A stretch of DNA of 20,000 bases, taken from an uncultured virus (IMG/VR IMGVR_UViG_3300005201_000719) (taxonomy: Duplodnaviria > Heunggongvirae > Uroviricota > Caudoviricetes). Where the stretch lies: the IMG/VR virus record IMGVR_UViG_3300005201_000719; one strand, 5' to 3'. A model generated the notes under the pieces. The model ran no database searches, was not told where the DNA came from, and saw only the letters and a program-made list of their open reading frames with translations. This document shows, in pieces, positions 1,553 to 18,668 of this stretch; within the stretch, counting starts at the first letter, position 1, and the number at the start of each line of letters is the position of its first letter. Made by a program: the position numbers and the translations under genes.

Positions 1553-3214
1553 TTAATCATTCCTCTTTTTACCGGAACCGGTCTTTTTAACAGGTTTTTT
1601 CGCCGCAGGTTTTCTCTTGCCCTGGGCTGGTTTGGCTTCTGTTTCTGTCTTTACAGGAGCAGGCGGAGCTTTCGGCTTCGGTATCATCGCCTGAATATCA
1701 GGGCGGTATAATTCCATGACCCTTTCTTTACTTACACCCAGCCATTTGAGGAAACCCATGTGCCTGCCATTTTCCAAATCGTCCGGATCTGGCAAATCAT
1801 TTTCACAAAATGAAACGGCAGATAATAACAAAAACAGTTTTTCTTTGGAGAGTTTGGTTAGGTCTGGAATTTGTTTCTCGGAATAATCGCTCCCCATGAA
1901 CAGCTTGAAGATTTTTTTTGTCTGATCTCCAATACGGTCAAAAATCTTTTCTTTCAAATACCATTCGATGTCCGATTCCGCAGGCTTCACTTTCAAACGT
2001 TCTTCAAGAAGCGGCAAAAAGTGTTTTTTCTGGAGTTTGTCATCCATTTGCCATGGATACAATTTGTTAGAATTCGCTTCCAACGATTTAATGGCGGTTA
2101 CGGTTTCTTCCTTTGACAGCCCCAGCAATTTTACGGCAGGTGCAAAACGGCTTTCTGAAACCGGACGCTGGTGTTCCGCCGCGCTAATTCGTTTTTCTTC
2201 TTTCCAGTATACGGCTTTGATTTCCAGATTACCGTTACTCGAAAGGGACATTTTGAAACACGGCTTTGCGTTTTTACATGGCTTGTCATCGGGGTTGTTA
2301 TAACCAGCACGAATTAACGTGTACTTTGCATTGTCAATTTTGACTTCCTTTCCCAAAATCCTGCGGAGCGATTGATCGCCGTATGCAATAAGAAATGTTT
2401 CCTCATGGGTTTTATGCCGCGTTTTCAGATTCTTGAGCTTTGTAGATAGCAGTGCTTTCCATTTCTGTAAATAGCACTCATGATTCAAGCACGAATCGTC
2501 CGTGTGGGTAAGTTCCGGGAACAGGCTTTTGTCCTCAAAGAACGTTCTTGTTTTGCAGGTTTCGCACTGCCCATCGGCGATGCACTTGTAGAGGTTATCA
2601 TGCTGCCGTTGCGACACAAAGGAAATGGCTTCATAATCGCCAATTTCTCTTTTGTGGTCTTTATACTTTTCGCAGAACGCCTTTTGCCCTTCCGTGTCCA
2701 GCGTTTTAAGCATAGCCGCAGCATGAAGGGAAATAATGCCGTTCCGGAACAGGGCTTTGACCTCATCAATAAGATCCAGAAGCTGTAACCGCTGGTAAAT
2801 CTCATTTACTTTACGGTCAAACCTTTTAGAAAGAACCTGAATGGTCTCCCCGTTCACTAAAAGCTTTTGAAAAATAGTCGCTTCATCAAGCGGGTGCATG
2901 GCAAGCCGATTGATGTTTTCCGACCCGGCGATCTCGTCGGCGTGTTCGATCTCATCCCCTTCAAGTATGCGACAGGGTATGTCTTCCCAGCCGAGCTGGG
3001 TTACAGCCCTTACGCGCCGGCGCCCGGCAACGACTTCAAAAAGCTCTGCGCTTTCACCTTCATCAACTTCCTCGATTGTCGGTTTCACGACAATGGGGTT
3101 AATGACGCCGATTAACTTAATGTCCCTAGCGAGGGTTTCAATTTCCCCTTCACCGCCGTAGGTGCGGTTACCAGAAAACCGCAAAGCGGCCAATGCAATT
3201 TTTTCTTCTCTCAT
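1553..3214 (-). CDS. Large ParB/RepB/Spo0J-family protein (ParB CTPase domain, HTH, Cys cluster, Lys-rich tail)
   Basis: LARDIKLIGVINPIVV, VVAGRRRVRA (GxRR motif), SENINRLAMHPLDEA; later CETC...CLNHEC; ATGA overlap with the SSB2 stop. Confidence 0.9.
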   Translation of the reverse strand: MREEKIALAALRFSGNRTYGGEGEIETLARDIKLIGVINPIVVKPTIEEVDEGESAELFEVVAGRRRVRAVTQLGWEDIPCRILEGDEIEHADEIAGSENINRLAMHPLDEATIFQKLLVNGETIQVLSKRFDRKVNEIYQRLQLLDLIDEVKALFRNGIISLHAAAMLKTLDTEGQKAFCEKYKDHKREIGDYEAISFVSQRQHDNLYKCIADGQCETCKTRTFFEDKSLFPELTHTDDSCLNHECYLQKWKALLSTKLKNLKTRHKTHEETFLIAYGDQSLRRILGKEVKIDNAKYTLIRAGYNNPDDKPCKNAKPCFKMSLSSNGNLEIKAVYWKEEKRISAAEHQRPVSESRFAPAVKLLGLSKEETVTAIKSLEANSNKLYPWQMDDKLQKKHFLPLLEERLKVKPAESDIEWYLKEKIFDRIGDQTKKIFKLFMGSDYSEKQIPDLTKLSKEKLFLLLSAVSFCENDLPDPDDLENGRHMGFLKWLGVSKERVMELYRPDIQAMIPKPKAPPAPVKTETEAKPAQGKRKPAAKKPVKKTGSGKKRND

Positions 3215-3561
3215 AAATCGATCTCCTTACTCTTTGATACAGGGCGGAATTCAACATGTTCCGCCACAACGATTACTTTGGAATGGGACTTGCCCTCCGA
3301 ATCATGCCACCGTTCCTGTTTGAGCCGTCCAACTACTCGGACAGGACGGCCCTTGTGTCCAAGGTTGTAGCAGTTCTCCGCCAGCTTTGCCCAGGTTTCC
3401 ACGTCAAAGAAACTTACTTCCCTTTCCAACCCAGAATCAAGTTTGAAGAACCGATTGGAAGCAATGGTAAAATTGCAAATGGGAGTTCCTTTGGGGGTAA
3501 CCCGGTACAGTGGGTCCCGTACCAGATTACCTTCGATTAAAATCGAGTTGAGGTTATTCAT
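3211..3561 (-). CDS. ssb: Single-stranded DNA-binding protein 2 (short OB-fold, no acidic tail)
   Basis: MNNLNSILIEGNLVRDP...SFFDVETW..LAE....GHKGRPVRVVGRLKQERW; ATG at 3561 with GAGG RBS. Confidence 0.92.
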   Translation of the reverse strand: MNNLNSILIEGNLVRDPLYRVTPKGTPICNFTIASNRFFKLDSGLEREVSFFDVETWAKLAENCYNLGHKGRPVRVVGRLKQERWHDSEGKSHSKVIVVAEHVEFRPVSKSKEIDL

Positions 3562-3571
3562 CTGCCTAACC

Positions 3572-3994
3572 TCAAAATGGAATGTCTTCATAAGGCGGAT
3601 ATCCATCACCTGCTGATGATTGGGGTTCCTGTGTTTGCCCTGATCCGCCGTCAGAACCTGCCGATGATCCGCCTAAGAGCTGAACAGATGAAGCGGTAAC
3701 CGTAACCTTGCTTCTTTTTTGTCCGTCCTTTTCCCAGCGTTCCTGGGTCAATTCTCCAACCACGGCGATCTGTTTTCCTTTTGACAGGTACTGCTTAAGG
3801 TGTTCTGCGAGTTGTCCCCAGAGGACAATTTCAAAAAATCCCGGCTCATCTTTCCACTGATCTTCGATTTTCCGTTTCTTATTTACGGCGATAGAAAACT
3901 TCCCAACCGCTTTCCCGGCAGTGGTAAATCTAAGATCCATGTCGTGGGTTAAACGCCCGATTAAAAAAACTTGATTCACATCTGAAACCGACAT
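3572..3994 (-). CDS. ssb: Single-stranded DNA-binding protein 1
   Basis: NQVFLIGRLT.D..LRFT..G..V..FSIAVN...YLSKGKQIAVVGEL; Gly/Ser linker; C-terminal EDIPF tip. Confidence 0.95.
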   Translation of the reverse strand: MSVSDVNQVFLIGRLTHDMDLRFTTAGKAVGKFSIAVNKKRKIEDQWKDEPGFFEIVLWGQLAEHLKQYLSKGKQIAVVGELTQERWEKDGQKRSKVTVTASSVQLLGGSSAGSDGGSGQTQEPQSSAGDGYPPYEDIPF

Positions 3995-12411: not shown

Positions 12412-13275
12412 CTACGCCACACAGAAGCCGGGGGCAACGCCACCCACCTCAGACGCACCGTAGTAATAGCTATGACCATAGTGGCTGCAAGTACAGAAAT
12501 TGGCGGCGGACGAAGCCGAGGCAGATGATGTCCAGTACCAGTGCGTATCATCTTCCCAAACCTTGATCCTGTTTTTGATTTGCGAGAAAAAAGAAAGTTG
12601 AAAAGGCTCATCATAAAAATTAGATTCAGGTTCCCAGTATTCCCCGTCACCAAATAACTCCGTTGCCGTAGGCAGAGTAATCTCCAGCCCGTCATTGTTT
12701 TCAAGTAACAAATCGGATATGTCCATCGCGTTGAGAAAGTCTGTATTGAGGTATTTAGCCAGAGCGCTTTCGGAGAAGCCCCCTTTGTTTGTATCTTTGG
12801 CGTTAATGGCGGATCTGAAAATTATATCTTCAAAGTTGAATAAGGCCTTACCATTCTCTGTTACTTCGACGAGCTGTACCTTCGATTCGATGTGCCGAGC
12901 AGGAAAGTCTAAACCGTCATAGCTTGCTGCAGGTACGTCAAACGAAACGCGGATAAAATCGCCAAAATTAAAATTCTCTACCGCCTCTGCCGGCGCAGTA
13001 CGGATATAGTCTTGTACCGCTTTGAACGCATGACGCCAATCACTGGCTCCCAAGTACCGTGTGAGATCGCGCGTTTCACCGGGGGCACGATTACCTTTCT
13101 CAGCGGTGTTTGCTTTTCCCGGTTTGTATCCCAGATCGCCAGGTACATCATCAACAGGCATCACTTTGAGTTTCAGCGGGGTAACTCTTTGCCGATACTT
13201 GCTCGAAAACTCAATGACTTCAAATCCGGCTTTGTTCATTGCCGAAATTGCCCTGTTCAATAAATCGTTAATCAT
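12412..13275 (-). CDS. DUF6273-like C-type-lectin-fold protein with DGR variable-region-like C-terminus
   Basis: SALAKYLNTDFL, ITLPTATELFG, WYWTSS...NFCTCSHYGHSYYYGASEVGGVAPGFCV; ATG at 13275 with AGGAGG RBS. Confidence 0.8.
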   Translation of the reverse strand: MINDLLNRAISAMNKAGFEVIEFSSKYRQRVTPLKLKVMPVDDVPGDLGYKPGKANTAEKGNRAPGETRDLTRYLGASDWRHAFKAVQDYIRTAPAEAVENFNFGDFIRVSFDVPAASYDGLDFPARHIESKVQLVEVTENGKALFNFEDIIFRSAINAKDTNKGGFSESALAKYLNTDFLNAMDISDLLLENNDGLEITLPTATELFGDGEYWEPESNFYDEPFQLSFFSQIKNRIKVWEDDTHWYWTSSASASSAANFCTCSHYGHSYYYGASEVGGVAPGFCVA

Positions 13276-13304
13276 AAAACCTCCTAAGTTCAAAATTGAA
13301 CTAC

Positions 13305-13403
13305 TGGACCGGGGCGGAATCGAACCGCCGTTTTGACTGGTCGGGAAAAGGAGGTTTCAGAGGAAACCCGCCCACCCATGCCATACCACTAGACCACCGA
13401 TCC
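13305..13403 (-). ncRNA. tRNA-like RNA (99 nt) with extended, non-canonical anticodon arm
   Basis: Acceptor GGATCGG/CCGGTCC+A, T8G9, D arm GTC-TAGTGGTAT-GGC, T arm GGCGG-TTCGATT-CCGCC; 49 nt in place of the anticodon/variable region. Confidence 0.8.
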
Positions 13404-13407
13404 AAAA

Positions 13408-13505
13408 CCGCACAGAGCCGCGGCGTACACCCATGAACCTTCTGTGCCTATCCGTGCGTCCACGGACGGAAACTTCCGGCAGGTTTGGTTTAGCCCTCTG
13501 TGCGG
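13408..13505 (-). ncRNA. Structured 98-nt RNA between two tRNA-like elements
   Basis: Perfect 10-bp closing stem CCGCACAGAG/CTCTGTGCGG; inner AACCT/AGGTT, TGCC/GGCA and hairpin TCCGTG-GACG-CACGGA. Confidence 0.6.
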
Positions 13506-13506
13506 A

Positions 13507-13587
13507 TGGGGACGGCAGGGGGCGAACCCTGCATGGCCTAGGCGCGCTGCCACTGGGCCGATTTGTATGACACCGCACCACATCCCC
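13507..13587 (-). ncRNA. Degenerate tRNA-like RNA (81 nt)
   Basis: Acceptor GGGGATG/CGTCCCC+A, T8G9, weak D stem GTG/TAC, T arm GCAGG-GTTCGCCC-CCTGC (one extra nt), middle arm GGCC...GGCC without a canonical anticodon loop. Confidence 0.65.
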
Positions 13588-13789
13588 GGTAGGACACCCG
13601 ATTTATATCCCGCTCGCTCCCTACTATCGCGGTTGCCCGTCTCTCCGGGCTGCCAAGCCTCTACTCCGTTCTGCCTCGGGCTTCCTACAGCTTCTCATCC
13701 AGTCGGATTTTGGGTGGGACTACATACGGCGTTGTACCCACAAATTCCGGACAGCCAGTACCTACACTATCCGTACCGTAAATTTTGAT

Positions 13790-13861
13790 TAGCAGGGGCT
13801 GGAATTGAACCAGCGACATCCGGCTTATGAGGCCGGCAAGCTACCGCTGCTTTACCCTGCC
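13790..13861 (-). tRNA. Phage tRNA, anticodon CAT (initiator Met-like), no encoded CCA
   Basis: GGCAGGG TA AAGC AGCGGTA GCTT G CCGGC CTCATAA GCCGG ATGTC GCTGG TTCAATT CCAGC CCCTGCT A: complete cloverleaf. Confidence 0.95.
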
Positions 13862-13868
13862 TGGTTTT

Positions 13869-13979
13869 TTACCTCCTTTCTTTTCTTCCACGGAAAAACT
13901 TATGCCTCTTGTGGTTGTTAACCAGCCACAAGCCGATAAAACCGAAAACCCCGGCGATTACCAGAATCAATACGATCAT
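13869..13979 (-). CDS. Small single-pass membrane peptide (36 aa)
   Basis: Not in ORF track. MIVLILVIAGVFGFIGLWLVNNHKRHKFFRGRKERR*; ATGA overlap with the upstream stop. Confidence 0.65.
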   Translation of the reverse strand: MIVLILVIAGVFGFIGLWLVNNHKRHKFFRGRKERR

Positions 13980-14572
13980 TTTTTTTGCGCTTCTTTCGGC
14001 GGTTCATCAGCCGGTTTCTTTTCTTCCTGACATGAGACCTTGATCGTTTCCATGCAGTTTGTAGATATGACAAGAACGTCCGTAGGAACAGTAATGTCCC
14101 CGGATGATTTTGATTTTCTCAAAATGATTTCGTCATAATCTTTGTTCTTTGAATTGGCCACAACCGCGCGGGCGTTAATAATGGCGCCGCGGTTAATTTC
14201 CTGACCTATCGATCTGAGAATGGCGTCAACAATCTCCGTTGTCTTTTCTCTGACAAGCCCGTATGCAGATTTAGTCCGCAGATTGGTATCCAGCTTTTCA
14301 AGATAATTCTTGACGACCTCGTTTCCCTTTGTTGAAACCACACTGCAAAGCAAATCCTTCTGTTCGCTGGTCAATTCAAGGTTATTTTCCATGAAGGAAT
14401 TTACCCTAAGATCATCAGCAAGCTTATTCGTAAGATCGCCAAAAAGATCATCAAGTGCATTAAGCCTGATCACCGATTCAAAAATATCGTGAACGGTTTC
14501 AACAATTTGCTCGTCTATTACCGGCCTGATGTCCTCAAAATCCGGTTGCTGATTTTGTACAACTTTCTTCAT
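13976..14572 (-). CDS. Hypothetical phage protein (198 aa)
   Basis: ATG 2 nt after the rusA stop, with AAGGAG upstream. Confidence 0.8.
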   Translation of the reverse strand: MKKVVQNQQPDFEDIRPVIDEQIVETVHDIFESVIRLNALDDLFGDLTNKLADDLRVNSFMENNLELTSEQKDLLCSVVSTKGNEVVKNYLEKLDTNLRTKSAYGLVREKTTEIVDAILRSIGQEINRGAIINARAVVANSKNKDYDEIILRKSKSSGDITVPTDVLVISTNCMETIKVSCQEEKKPADEPPKEAQKK

Positions 14573-15652: not shown

Positions 15653-15758
15653 GCCACTTTAGTGGCGTTTATCTCACTATAAAGCCAAAATAATGGCTTC
15701 GTCAAGCGGTAAAGCCACTTTTTTGGCTTTTTTTTTCAGAAAAAGCCGAAATTATTGC
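15653..15758. promoter_or_regulatory. Lysis/lysogeny switch: four GCCA-N6-TGGC operators and leftward sigma70 promoter
   Basis: Sites at 15653-15666, 15684-15697, 15714-15727 and degenerate 15745-15758 (GCCG-N6-TTGC); TTGACG (15705-15700), 18-nt spacer, TATAGT (15681-15676) on minus. Confidence 0.85.
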
Positions 15759-15759
15759 T

Positions 15760-16182
15760 ATGAATTCAAAATTTTGGGAAAATGTTCGCGAGCAGATAAA
15801 AGACAAGAAAGATAGTCAGAAGTGGCTTGCGGATGCCTCGGGGGTTGGACGGACAGCGATAAACAATGGTATTGCCAAACTGAATAAGCCAGAAACCAAG
15901 GGAAATACCGTAATAAACAGTCCGTCAGCCGACAATGCCTTTGCCATTGCACGGGTTCTAAAAACAACGGTTGAAGAACTGGTAGCCGGTCCGATTGGCG
16001 CTGAGTATGTCCGGCAGCTTTATGCCGCCAAGGGGTTACTATGGGAGCCTCCCGGGCGTATCGCCGACATCGTGGCGGTGCTGGACGCCGTAGACGATGA
16101 AACGCTGGATACAGTCAGGACAATGCTTCTCCCGCTGAAAGAAAAAAAGGGAGACGTTGCATCCGGTTTGGCGACAGGGTGA
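15760..16182 (+). CDS. XRE-family HTH repressor (CI-like, no peptidase domain)
   Basis: FWENVRE.IK....SQKWLADASGVGRTAINN...PSADNAFAIARVLKTTVEELV; divergent from the early operon; no SD, possibly leaderless. Confidence 0.9.
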   Translation: MNSKFWENVREQIKDKKDSQKWLADASGVGRTAINNGIAKLNKPETKGNTVINSPSADNAFAIARVLKTTVEELVAGPIGAEYVRQLYAAKGLLWEPPGRIADIVAVLDAVDDETLDTVRTMLLPLKEKKGDVASGLATG

Positions 16183-17372: not shown

Positions 17373-18668
17373 TTACGACGCCTTAAACTTGATGACGTTC
17401 GGCGGATCTTCCTTTGGCGGTTCCGCCGCTTTTTCCGTTGCCTCTGTAATAATACTCCCAATATCACGGATCGTCTTACTTGTTGAATGAAGGTAGTTTA
17501 TTGTCGTTTTCAGATCCGAGTGGCCTAACAGTTCTTGAATGTATCGTAAAGAAACGTTCCTTGCCTCCAGCAATGACGCCAGGGAATGACGCGAGCTGTG
17601 CGGAACAATTTCACGGCCGTTTAATTCTATCCCAGCTTTATTAAGCCATTTCTCAAAATGAGCGCCTATCCACCAAGCTGAGGGGATACTCCCGTCCTTG
17701 CGAGAAAACACAAATTCATGTTGGCCGTTTTCGGCCCACAGTTTTTTTATTGCCGCCTGTAGGATTGGATCAAATGGGGCTTTTCTTTCCTTTTTCCCTT
17801 TCGGTGGCCCCAGCACCTTGTCTTTATAGTCAAACATTTGCCATGCCCTGCGAACCATTATCTTTGGGGTGTGCCAGTCCAGATCCTCAGGCTTCAAAGC
17901 AAATACCTCAGCTCGGCGTAAACCAGAAAGGAACATCGCGCCGCACACCGCCAGATCCATAGTCTCAGTTAGAATACCCGGCATGAATAGCTGTAGCATT
18001 TCATCTTCCGGAAGGTGGTCTCTTGTCTTGCCTTCATATTTTGTAAGGTCAATGTACATGAATGGGTTTAGCCATTTGCGGTTTTTTCGTTGATATTGTT
18101 TGAACGCCATTTTGAAAAACTTTATAACGCCGGTCGCAGTACGAGTGCCGCCTAACATCTGATCGGATTCCTTTTTTCCTATCAACTTTTTTTTAACGGA
18201 TAATCGGGACATGAATTCCAAAATATCTTCTTCTTCAGTCTCAGCCATTTTTAACGAGGCTATCACATCGTTTTTTATGTGGCACTCATAATAACTTTTA
18301 TAAAAATTAAGAGAGTCCACGGAATACGGGCGGTTCTTTGAGGCATTGATTCCTGTCCGCGGGCTGGTATCTATCCGGGTGAACTTTTTCATCCAATCGC
18401 CGACCGTGATGTCTTCTGTAGAAATACGCCGGGCGCTCCCATCTTCTTCCAGCCTTTTTTTCAAGTACTGGACAAGGGCGAACACGGCGGTTTCCGCAGC
18501 GACTTTTGTTTGGGGGTATCGGTGATTTGCCAATTCTGTTGGCAGGTGTTTGAAGCTCTTGCGAAACCACTCGTCGCAGACGCGCTCTGGAAGGCCGCAG
18601 GAGGGATGAAGGGTAAGACGGTACGATTTGGAATCAGTACGGCGGATGATGGAATAGGGCTTTGGCAT
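17373..18668 (-). CDS. int: Tyrosine recombinase / phage integrase
   Basis: SGLRRAEVFALK (R), PKGKK (K), HSSRHS (HxxR), LLGHSDLKTTINY (H, Y); adjacent to tRNA 3' end; AAGGAG RBS. Confidence 0.97.
   Translation of the reverse strand: MPKPYSIIRRTDSKSYRLTLHPSCGLPERVCDEWFRKSFKHLPTELANHRYPQTKVAAETAVFALVQYLKKRLEEDGSARRISTEDITVGDWMKKFTRIDTSPRTGINASKNRPYSVDSLNFYKSYYECHIKNDVIASLKMAETEEEDILEFMSRLSVKKKLIGKKESDQMLGGTRTATGVIKFFKMAFKQYQRKNRKWLNPFMYIDLTKYEGKTRDHLPEDEMLQLFMPGILTETMDLAVCGAMFLSGLRRAEVFALKPEDLDWHTPKIMVRRAWQMFDYKDKVLGPPKGKKERKAPFDPILQAAIKKLWAENGQHEFVFSRKDGSIPSAWWIGAHFEKWLNKAGIELNGREIVPHSSRHSLASLLEARNVSLRYIQELLGHSDLKTTINYLHSTSKTIRDIGSIITEATEKAAEPPKEDPPNVIKFKAS

What the first reader, a model, noticed from the sequence alone, without database searches (positions are those of the whole stretch)
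13305..13861. tRNA-punctuated non-coding RNA cassette in the phage early operon
Seen: on the minus strand a bona fide tRNA(CAT) (13790-13861), a ~200-nt hairpin-rich spacer, tRNA mimic 1 (13507-13587), a 98-nt closed-stem RNA (13408-13505) and tRNA mimic 2 (13305-13403) are packed together. Only 1 and 4 nt separate the last three elements. Both mimics keep a 7-bp acceptor stem, U8, T arm and discriminator but have lost a normal anticodon arm. Known: RNase P and RNase Z recognise mainly the acceptor/T-arm half of tRNA. Inference: the mimics are processing signals that cut the early transcript into discrete small RNAs, and/or decoys for tRNA-targeting defence nucleases. I do not recognise this as a described RNA family; it is the best candidate for a new system in the window.
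Basis: partly seen in the sequence, partly recalled or inferred. Interest (0 to 1): 0.85.

Follow-up and report, generated by a model that had tools for sequence, protein, structure and literature searches.

The report
Phage tRNA-like RNA displaying ribosomal anti-Shine-Dalgarno
A prophage carries, next to a real tRNA, a conserved tRNA-shaped RNA whose enlarged "anticodon" loop shows the same nine bases that the ribosome uses to grip messenger RNAs, which suggests an undescribed way for phages to interfere with the start of protein synthesis.

Summary
The window is the early operon of a Treponema-type prophage. The tRNA-Met(CAT) at 13790-13861(-) is real. "Mimic 2" (13305-13403, -) is also real and is the key element. 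It scores as a tRNA in Rfam (39.5 bits, cut-off 29) but has a 21-nt loop where the 7-nt anticodon loop should be. I found 10 homologues in related phage and prophage loci. Acceptor and T stems covary strongly: 99.2% of cells are paired and 9 of 12 pairs change on both sides. The loops are 11-21 nt long, and 10 of 11 carry ACCUCCUUU (L004 has ACUCCUUU). That is the pairing core of the 3' tail of 16S rRNA, which reads GGAUCACCUCCUUUCA in the host family. Five further phage contigs show the same motif in the loop of other tRNA-like backbones. No Rfam family other than tRNA matches, and five of six literature searches were aimed at such an RNA and found none. Most likely the RNA is cut out by tRNA-processing enzymes and pairs with Shine-Dalgarno sites; whether it acts in cis or in trans is unresolved. 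Mimic 1 has three looser relatives. The 98-nt RNA has no homologue and remains unverified.

The parts
13790..13861 (-). tRNA with anticodon CAT. Whether it is initiator, elongator Met or Ile2 is not resolved.
   Evidence: ARAGORN; Rfam RF00005 at 66.7 bits. Homologous CAT tRNAs lie upstream of the anti-SD tRNA-like RNA in L004, L008, L009 and L041.
13588..13789 (-). Structured spacer. The block 13680-13789 is homologous to L004:845-950. The hairpin at 13633-13652 is identical to L006:2362-2381.
   Evidence: blastn between loci: 59 nt at 91.5% identity and a 20-nt exact match. Two-sequence consensus fold with 2 compensated pairs. Alone its fold is not unusual: z = -1.14.
13507..13587 (-). tRNA-like element 'mimic 1': 7-bp acceptor stem, U8, one long hairpin with a 13-nt loop, and a T arm with a non-canonical loop.
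   Evidence: Folds. Acceptor and T stems match L041:2265-2389, L062:1329-1455 and L010:2490-2579, with compensated changes (sequences). No Rfam hit and no R1 hit.
13406..13507 (-).
   Evidence: MFE -43.3 kcal/mol, z = -2.36. No homologue in the held loci or in GenBank phages. No Rfam hit.
13305..13403 (-). Anti-SD tRNA-like RNA ('mimic 2'): acceptor stem, D arm, extended anticodon stem, 21-nt loop, T arm, discriminator A.
   Evidence: Rfam tRNA 39.5 bits. Covariance model R1 63.2 bits. 11-member family with 99.2% of cells paired and 9 of 12 pairs changed on both sides.
13347..13355 (-). ACCUCCUUU in the loop, the same nine bases as the anti-Shine-Dalgarno core of the 16S rRNA 3' tail.
   Evidence: Present in 10 of 11 family members; L004 has ACUCCUUU. 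The 16S 3' end in the host family reads GGATCACCTCCTTTCA in 6 of 6 loci read.
13273..13285 (-). Shine-Dalgarno AGGAGG (13280-13285) and ATG (13273-13275) of the next gene, 29 nt after the tRNA-like RNA.
   Evidence: Read. AGGAGGUUU is complementary to AAACCUCCU of the loop.
12412..13275 (-). DUF6273 protein gene, the usual downstream neighbour.
   Evidence: Pfam PF19789 at 27.1 bits. 36 homologues. The fold search found no informative match.
13869..13979 (-). 36-aa membrane-peptide ORF that ends 7 nt before the tRNA.
   Evidence: Read; weak PHROG 'membrane protein' hit, E 0.021. In L010 the homologous peptide gene abuts the DUF6273 gene with no RNA cassette between them.
15676..15705 (-). Promoter-like site upstream of the early operon, the likely source of the transcript that carries the cassette.
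   Evidence: TTGACG-18-TATAGT, 10 of 12 matches. This is a consensus match only.

Best explanation
The cassette is a modular island of non-coding RNAs inserted between two genes of a Treponema-type prophage early operon. It holds a genuine tRNA(CAT), structured spacers, a loosely conserved tRNA-like RNA (mimic 1), an unverified 98-nt hairpin RNA, and a well-conserved tRNA-shaped RNA (mimic 2). Mimic 2 keeps the parts of a tRNA that the processing enzymes and the L-shaped fold need: a 7-bp acceptor stem, a D loop with GG, and a UUCGAUU-type T loop. Its anticodon loop is replaced by an 11-21-nt loop that ends in ACCUCCUUU, the same bases with which 16S rRNA pairs with Shine-Dalgarno sequences. 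Proposed mechanism: the early polycistronic transcript is cut by RNase P at the 5' end and by RNase Z or exonucleases at the 3' end (inferred). This releases a stable tRNA-like RNA. Its loop then pairs with AAAGGAGGU-type ribosome-binding sites and competes with 30S subunits (inferred). That would damp or re-programme SD-dependent initiation. The first candidate target is the strong AGGAGGU site 10-12 nt downstream of the element, either in cis before cleavage or in trans afterwards. Other host or phage mRNAs are equally possible targets. Shown here: the structure, the family, the conserved motif and its identity with the 16S tail. Inferred: processing, loop exposure, pairing and the effect on translation.
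For: Rfam tRNA match at 39.5 bits with a 41-nt insert at the anticodon position. Eleven family members were found by neighbour-gene and motif searches. On acceptor and T stems, 99.2% of cells are paired against 77.7% in shuffles, 9 of 12 pairs change on both sides, and 0 of 500 shuffles reach the observed score; slid controls give 34-64%. Stems drift while the loop motif stays: ACCUCCUUU in 10 of 11 members and ACUCCUUU in 1. The host-family 16S rRNA ends in GGATCACCTCCTTTCA. Only the pairing core is conserved; the preceding CA of 16S is kept in 3 of 11. The discriminator base varies (A, G, U), which argues against a fixed aminoacylation identity. ARAGORN gives no call or gives inconsistent anticodons (Arg-CCG, Stop-TTA, Arg-CCT, Lys-CTT). 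The same motif sits in the loop of other tRNA-like backbones in five more phage contigs, one of them resembling the tRNA-like domain of tmRNA. No promoter-like site lies inside the cassette on the minus strand. The cassette is absent between the same two genes in L010. In 8 of 11 loci the next gene starts 23-29 nt downstream with a GGAGG- or GGGGG-type SD.
Against: There are no expression data, and no sequencing run was listed. Thermodynamic models do not agree that the motif is exposed. Mean unpaired probability is 0.8-1.0 in 6 of 16 elements but about 0.3-0.45 in the window copy, L004, L009, L011, L041, L352 and L359. In several of these the G-rich 5' strand of the stem can pair with CCUCC instead. 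A loop identical to the ribosome's own anti-SD has no target specificity. Duplex energies against the window's 19 start regions do not single out one gene; the DUF6273 site ranks third, and 126 of 1068 background windows reach -12 kcal/mol. The phage's own genes also use SD sites, so a global inhibitor would hit them too. The link to DUF6273 is biased by how I searched, and the strong SD is also present in L010, which lacks the element. Two members found by motif alone (L062, L065) precede other genes at 87-111 nt.
Confidence: 0.45

Rival explanations
1. Pure processing punctuation. The tRNA-like elements exist only so that RNase P/Z cut the early transcript into separate RNAs or mRNAs with defined ends. 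The excised pieces have no function of their own.
For: The cassette sits inside an operon with no promoter-like site of its own. The acceptor/T half is well kept. In 8 of 11 loci the 3' end lies 23-29 nt before the next start codon, so cleavage would give a short defined leader. A stable hairpin precedes the element in most loci and could protect the upstream fragment.
Against: A cleavage signal does not need a loop motif kept in 10 of 11 diverged members, nor a D arm with GG. It would not be expected to re-appear on unrelated tRNA-like backbones.
Confidence: 0.15
2. Decoy. The RNA imitates the 16S 3' tail and/or a tRNA anticodon loop. It would soak up a host defence RNase or a factor that binds or cuts these sites, for example enzymes that remove the anti-SD or cut anticodon loops.
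For: It combines a tRNA body with the 16S tail sequence. A preprint reports that target-activated Cas13a leads to cleavage of tRNA anticodon loops and to removal of the anti-SD-containing 3' fragment of 16S rRNA (passages of 10.1101/2021.11.10.468108). L065 matches 12 consecutive bases of the tail, AUCACCUCCUUU.
Against: Only the 9-nt pairing core is conserved. The bases 5' of it differ from 16S in 8 of 11 members. No nuclease or anti-defence gene is recognisably linked.
Confidence: 0.15
3. Dedicated cis-regulator of the DUF6273 gene. While still part of the mRNA, the loop pairs with the adjacent SD as a pseudoknot and blocks translation until RNase P/Z separate the two.
For: Nine of 11 members precede a DUF6273 gene. 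Loop and SD can form 6-9 bp in every locus (my reading). The DUF6273 SD is the longest match to the anti-SD among the window's genes.
Against: The sample is biased by the gene-based search. L062 and L065 precede other genes. L007 and L010 have the gene without the element, and L010 has the same SD. Nested folding cannot test a pseudoknot, so one search is uninformative.
Confidence: 0.15
4. Decaying tRNA pseudogenes with no function.
For: The window's mimic 1 has a degenerate T loop and no detectable D arm. The 98-nt RNA has no homologue.
Against: For mimic 2, compensatory changes keep 99.2% of stem cells paired, and one loop motif is fixed across loci whose neighbouring protein is only 45-57% identical.
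Confidence: 0.05

Closest known systems
Canonical tRNA (Rfam RF00005)
   Same: Cloverleaf with 7-bp acceptor stem, D arm with GG, T arm with a UUCGAUU-type loop and a 3-4-nt variable region. It scores above the Rfam cut-off.
   Different: The anticodon loop is 11-21 nt with no consistent anticodon. The discriminator varies. ARAGORN fails or gives contradictory identities. It cannot decode in the ordinary way.
3' tail of 16S rRNA (anti-Shine-Dalgarno)
   Same: Nine identical bases, ACCUCCUUU, and up to 12 in L065.
   Different: The bases sit in a hairpin loop of a small tRNA-shaped RNA, not at a free 3' end inside the 30S platform.
C-rich-loop regulatory sRNAs that mask ribosome-binding sites (RsaE/RoxS, RNAIII type; recalled, not tested)
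   Same: A pyrimidine-rich loop complementary to SD sequences. The proposed mode of action is the same.
   Different: There is no sequence or Rfam relationship. The scaffold is a tRNA fold made by processing, not a terminator-ended primary transcript. The motif is the full ribosomal anti-SD.
Phage T4 RNAC/RNAD, stable small RNAs encoded with the T4 tRNA genes
   Same: Phage small RNAs of unknown function. A passage of PMC9697503 calls them 'RNAs of yet unknown functions'. That they lie in the tRNA cluster and are matured by tRNA enzymes is recalled.
   Different: No homology was tested. No anti-SD loop is known to me in them.
tmRNA and YrlA/Y RNA (bacterial tRNA-like RNAs)
   Same: They use a tRNA-like acceptor/T module joined to another functional module. 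One analogue (L355) matches the tmRNA model end to end at 29.7 bits, below its cut-off of 47.
   Different: There is no tag ORF or pseudoknots. The ends are not permuted as in YrlA. Scores are far below the cut-offs in the window: YrlA 15.0 against 69, tmRNA_permuted 11.6 against 47. No Ro-like gene is recognised nearby.
Engineered 'tRNA scaffold' for expressing foreign RNAs in bacteria (recalled)
   Same: A functional RNA is inserted at the anticodon arm so that the tRNA body gives processing and stability.
   Different: That is a laboratory design. Here the arrangement is natural, and I found the motif on tRNA-like backbones that share no evident sequence.

Membership tests
tRNA (RF00005) | Cloverleaf scoring above the Rfam gathering score | tested here: met
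   39.5 bits against 29 for window 13305-13403. Relatives score 41-45.6 bits.
tRNA (RF00005) | 7-nt anticodon loop with a readable, conserved anticodon | tested here: not met
   Loops are 11-21 nt. ARAGORN gives no call in the window and contradictory anticodons in relatives.
tRNA (RF00005) | Aminoacylation and decoding on the ribosome | not testable with these tools
   The only hint is that the discriminator varies among A, G and U.
tmRNA | tRNA-like domain plus tag reading frame and pseudoknots | tested here: not met
   ARAGORN finds no tmRNA. Rfam tmRNA_permuted scores 11.6 against 47.
YrlA / bacterial Y RNA | Match to the Rfam model, with a Ro (Rsr) partner gene | tested here: not met
   15.0 bits against 69, on the T arm only. 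No Ro-like family among the ORFs scanned (27, 16).
SD-masking C-rich sRNAs | Exposed pyrimidine-rich loop complementary to SD | tested here: inconclusive
   The motif is present in every member. Predicted exposure ranges from 0.27 to 1.0.
SD-masking C-rich sRNAs | Demonstrated pairing with target ribosome-binding sites and repression | not testable with these tools
   Duplex energies are not specific.
tRNA-punctuated transcript processing | RNase P/Z cleavage at the element's ends within a polycistronic RNA | not testable with these tools
   Context only: no promoter-like site inside the cassette on the minus strand. No RNA run was listed.
T4 RNAC/RNAD-type phage stable RNAs | Sequence or structure homology | not tested
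   No model was at hand. GenBank phage blastn with the cassette matched only the tRNA part.

The most novel reading that the evidence does not exclude
Phages have repeatedly grafted the ribosome's own anti-Shine-Dalgarno sequence onto tRNA-shaped carriers. This would make a new class of translation-initiation hijackers. In the moderate form, an abundant, processed tRNA-like RNA masks SD sites across the transcriptome and shifts translation towards weak-SD or leaderless messages. In the boldest form, the tRNA body docks on the small subunit and supplies an anti-SD in trans, for example to ribosomes whose 16S tail is blocked or removed. It might work together with the co-encoded CAT tRNA, which carries the A11:U24 pair that I recall as an initiator feature.
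Probability: 0.3. Interest if true: 0.9.

Novelty: new variant of a known kind. Interest (0 to 1): 0.8.

Why it matters
tRNA-like RNAs and SD-masking small RNAs are each known. A natural tRNA scaffold that presents the ribosomal anti-SD itself has not, to my knowledge, been described, and none of the five searches aimed at it found one. If it pairs with SD sites, phages would have a simple RNA-only way to tune or seize translation initiation. It would also be a natural counterpart of the engineered tRNA scaffold. The motif, the covariation and the recurrence on different backbones make the idea directly testable with a 100-nt RNA and a loop mutant. The finding also shows that tRNA finders silently drop or mis-assign such genes in phage genomes.

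Tried and rejected
- **Whole-genome searches for the window:** none is held.
- **Sequencing runs:** none was listed, and no RNA holder was listed.
- **GenBank phages, blastn:** 24 records, and all match only the tRNA(CAT) part of the query.
- **Rfam:** at gathering score and at E<=10 it gave nothing but tRNA. The weak SOX2OT, Plastid-ycf2, YrlA and tmRNA rows are chance-level or T-arm-only.
- **First strict loop pattern:** it found only the already known contig.
- **L063:** a chance match, the reverse complement of an SD next to a start codon.
- **Scan for mimic-1-like 3' ends:** By my reading it was dominated by tmRNA-like 3' ends and ordinary tRNAs.
- **Relaxed anti-SD/T-arm scan:** 88 of 119 loci were ordinary tRNAs whose anticodon stem is CCUCC.
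- **Nested folding of element plus downstream start region:** this cannot represent loop-SD pairing, which is a pseudoknot, so the result says nothing.
- **Duplex energies against start regions:** they were not specific.
- **DUF6273 protein:** the structure model had mean pLDDT 70.4, and Foldseek against the PDB had no match at E<=0.001. The neighbour's function stays unknown.
- **ORFs that overlap the cassette** (64, 74 and 114 aa): no PHROG match. I did not run a deep protein search on them.
- **Short intron reading of the enlarged loop:** rejected. Loop length varies from 11 to 21 nt while the 3' motif is fixed, and I know of no bacterial splicing route for such inserts (recalled).
- **att-site fragment reading:** rejected. 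The element is complete, internal to the operon and far from the integrase gene (17373-18668).

Full report
**Context.** PHROG and Pfam scans show a prophage. There is an integrase (17373-18668, -) and a cI-like regulator (15760-16182, +). A long minus-strand early operon carries an excisionase/HTH protein, RusA, two SSBs, a Sak4-like protein, an exonuclease, methylases, ParB-like and primase-like proteins. The best promoter-like site on the minus strand lies at 15705-15676. No promoter-like site lies in the minus-strand interval that holds the RNAs. The only terminator-like site nearby on that strand (13968-13947) is weak and sits inside a small ORF. The cassette is therefore most simply part of the early polycistronic transcript. 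This is an inference.

**The observation.**
- ARAGORN finds one gene in the window, tRNA-Met(CAT) at 13790-13861. Rfam gives it 66.7 bits.
- In a permissive Rfam scan of 13150-14000, 'mimic 2' (13305-13403) matches the tRNA model end to end at 39.5 bits (cut-off 29). It has 41 nt where the model has 13, at the anticodon stem-loop.
- Nothing credible matches mimic 1, the 98-nt RNA or the spacer. YrlA (15.0 against 69) and permuted tmRNA (11.6 against 47) touch only the T arm.
- Mimic 1 folds as acceptor stem, one long hairpin and T arm.
- The 98-nt RNA folds with a 10-bp closing stem, with z = -2.36.

**Relatives.** No genome is held for the window, and GenBank phages match only the tRNA. I therefore used the flanking genes.
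- The downstream ORF (12412-13275) is a DUF6273 protein with 36 homologues, mostly metagenomic and one from a Treponema MAG.
- Its alignment retrieved 27 metagenome, 9 genome and 21 viral loci.
- Among the 10 loci with a full-length homologue, 8 carry a tRNA-like element directly upstream: L004, L005, L006, L008, L009, L011, L031 and L041. Two do not: L007 and L010.
- In L010 the small membrane-peptide gene that precedes the cassette in the window abuts the DUF6273 gene. The cassette therefore behaves as an insertion.
- A motif scan of viral contigs added L062 and L065, plus one chance hit, L063. Their downstream genes are not DUF6273.
- A covariance model built from six members (R1) was run over 57 sources (264,877 bases). 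It recovered all 11 elements at 25.7-98.4 bits, with the window at 63.2. It also found ordinary tRNAs and other tRNA-likes, but not the window's mimic 1.
- In 151 genomes of the family of the MAG that holds L031, only that MAG has the element. All other hits are ordinary 73-nt tRNAs at about 47 bits or less.

**Structure.**
- In the 11 sequences the acceptor stem is paired in 75 of 77 cells and the T stem in 55 of 55. Many changes are compensated.
- On the MAFFT alignment, 99.2% of 129 cells pair, against 77.7 +/- 2.2% in shuffles. Nine of 12 pairs change on both sides. No shuffle out of 500 reaches the observed covariation score, and sliding the partners drops pairing to 34-64%.
- T loops are UUCGAUU-like in 10 of 11 members. 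Eight keep a D arm with GG. The discriminator is A, G or U.
- ARAGORN either does not call these genes or assigns Arg(CCG), Stop(TTA), Arg(CCT) or Lys(CTT). This is what one expects for a non-decoding loop.

**The loop.** The anticodon stem is 4-10 bp, sometimes with bulges, and closes a loop of 11-21 nt. The loop starts with UUU(C)C and ends with ACCUCCUUU followed by U or A; L004 has ACUCCUUU. I read the 3' end of 16S rRNA in six genomes of the host family, and all six read GGATCACCTCCTTTCA. The loop therefore carries the nine bases that pair with Shine-Dalgarno sequences; that these nine are the pairing core is recalled knowledge. The CA that precedes them in 16S is present in only 3 of 11 members, and L065 matches 12 bases.

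It was dominated by ordinary tRNAs whose anticodon stem happens to be CCUCC (88 of 119 loci). It and a narrower scan with 11 hits showed the same motif in the loop of other tRNA-like backbones: L352, L355, L357, L359 and L285. L352 and L285 pass the Rfam tRNA cut-off. L355 resembles a tmRNA tRNA-like domain, at 29.7 bits against a cut-off of 47. I take this as recurrence of one design, a tRNA-like carrier plus an anti-SD loop.

**Mechanism.** What is shown is a conserved, structured, tRNA-shaped RNA with a fixed anti-SD motif, embedded in an operon. What follows is inference.
- tRNA-processing enzymes should release it, because the acceptor/T half they recognise is intact.
- The tRNA fold should make it stable.
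- The loop should pair with SD sites.

Only the pairing core is conserved, which favours pairing over recognition of the rRNA tail by a protein. I could not decide between cis and trans action.
- In 8 of 11 loci the next start codon is 23-29 nt away, and loop and SD can form 6-9 bp.
- The DUF6273 SD (AGGAGGU) is the longest match to the anti-SD among the window's genes.
- Against a dedicated cis role, L010 has the same SD without the element. L062 and L065 precede other genes at 87-111 nt. My sample is also biased towards DUF6273.
- Nested folding cannot model the pseudoknot, and duplex energies are unspecific.

Results against the model are these.
- Predicted exposure of the motif is high in six elements but low (about 0.3-0.45) in the window copy and six others. 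In several of these the G-rich 5' strand of the stem can pair with CCUCC. This could be a switch, or it could mean that the loop is not free.
- There are no expression data.
- The phage's own genes use SD sites too.

**Other parts of the cassette.**
- CAT tRNAs accompany the element in 5 of 11 loci. All five have A11:U24 and an initiator-like D arm (features recalled), but their 1:72 pairs and anticodon stems differ. Identity is open.
- The spacer after the tRNA is homologous to L004:845-950 and has two compensated pairs.
- Mimic 1 shares its acceptor stem (GGRRAYG with CGUYYCY) and T stem with L041:2265-2389, L062:1329-1455 and L010:2490-2579. All 28 acceptor cells and all 20 T-stem cells are paired by my reading. 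In L041 and L062 the relative sits directly before the anti-SD element. The inserts differ, and the window copy has a non-canonical T loop.
- The 98-nt RNA has no relative.
- The DUF6273 protein gave no structural lead.

**Comparison and novelty.** The element passes the sequence and structure test for tRNA but fails the defining 7-nt anticodon loop. It fails the tests for tmRNA and YrlA.
- It resembles SD-masking C-rich sRNAs in its presumed action. In architecture it resembles the engineered tRNA scaffold. Both comparisons are recalled.
- It resembles T4 RNAC/RNAD in being a phage small RNA of unknown function next to tRNA genes (passage of PMC9697503).
- Five full-text searches did not find a paper that describes such an RNA. 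I read only the listings and the passages named. The terms covered tRNA-like with anti-SD, enlarged anticodon loops, tRNA-like prophage sRNAs, anti-SD mimics, and CCUCC with tRNA-like. A sixth search looked only for the T4 RNAC/RNAD comparison.

I rate it a new variant of known kinds, with a real chance of being more.

Noticed in passing
L069:1501-1601 and L071:1501-1616 (Treponema MAG G001, chromosomal): Two tRNA genes score 55.8 and 54.6 bits in Rfam but are not called by ARAGORN. They share one tRNA body and have a 28- or 43-nt extra hairpin in the anticodon arm. Removing the insert would leave a CUUCUAA-type loop (anticodon UCU). They may be short-intron tRNAs or host tRNA-scaffolded RNAs.
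   Followed up: partly
L004:1345-1370, L009:2309-2336, L065: about 1395-1430: A hairpin in three cassettes has a covarying stem (three different stems) and an invariant C-rich loop, UUCCCCUCCCAAAU. This is a second possible SD-binding loop. The window has only a looser relative, GUCCCACCCAAAAUCC, near 13710-13725.
   Followed up: no
L114, L117, L141, L149, L171, L179, L181, L187, L211, L219 and L230 (viral contigs): Many phage contigs hold tRNA-like genes of 94-127 nt with canonical acceptor, D and T arms and large, unrelated inserts at the anticodon or variable position. This suggests that tRNA-scaffolded RNAs are common in phages.
   Followed up: no
L355:973-1044: A 72-nt RNA has an acceptor stem with G3:U70 and a T arm that match the tmRNA model end to end (29.7 bits, cut-off 47). 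The whole middle is replaced by a stem-loop that carries ACCUCCUUUUU.
   Followed up: partly
window 13633-13652 and just upstream of the element in L004, L006, L008, L009, L011, L031 and L065: A stable CCGG/CCGG-type hairpin, often with an AGGGA-containing loop, directly precedes the anti-SD tRNA-like RNA in most loci. In the window it is separated from the element by mimic 1 and the 98-nt RNA.
   Followed up: no
L001:3610-4130: In a phage whose upstream gene is 68% identical to window 13976-14572, the place of the RNA cassette is taken by an ORF. Its sequence looks HNH-endonuclease-like to me, but I ran no family scan on it.
   Followed up: no
window 3211-3609 and 3572-3994 (-): Two adjacent, overlapping SSB-family ORFs, both matching phrog_44.
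   Followed up: no
window 13790-13861 (-) and L004, L008, L009, L041: All five phage CAT tRNAs have an A11:U24 pair. L004 and L009 also have three G:C pairs at the base of the anticodon stem (initiator-like features, recalled). L004 has C instead of U at position 33.
   Followed up: partly
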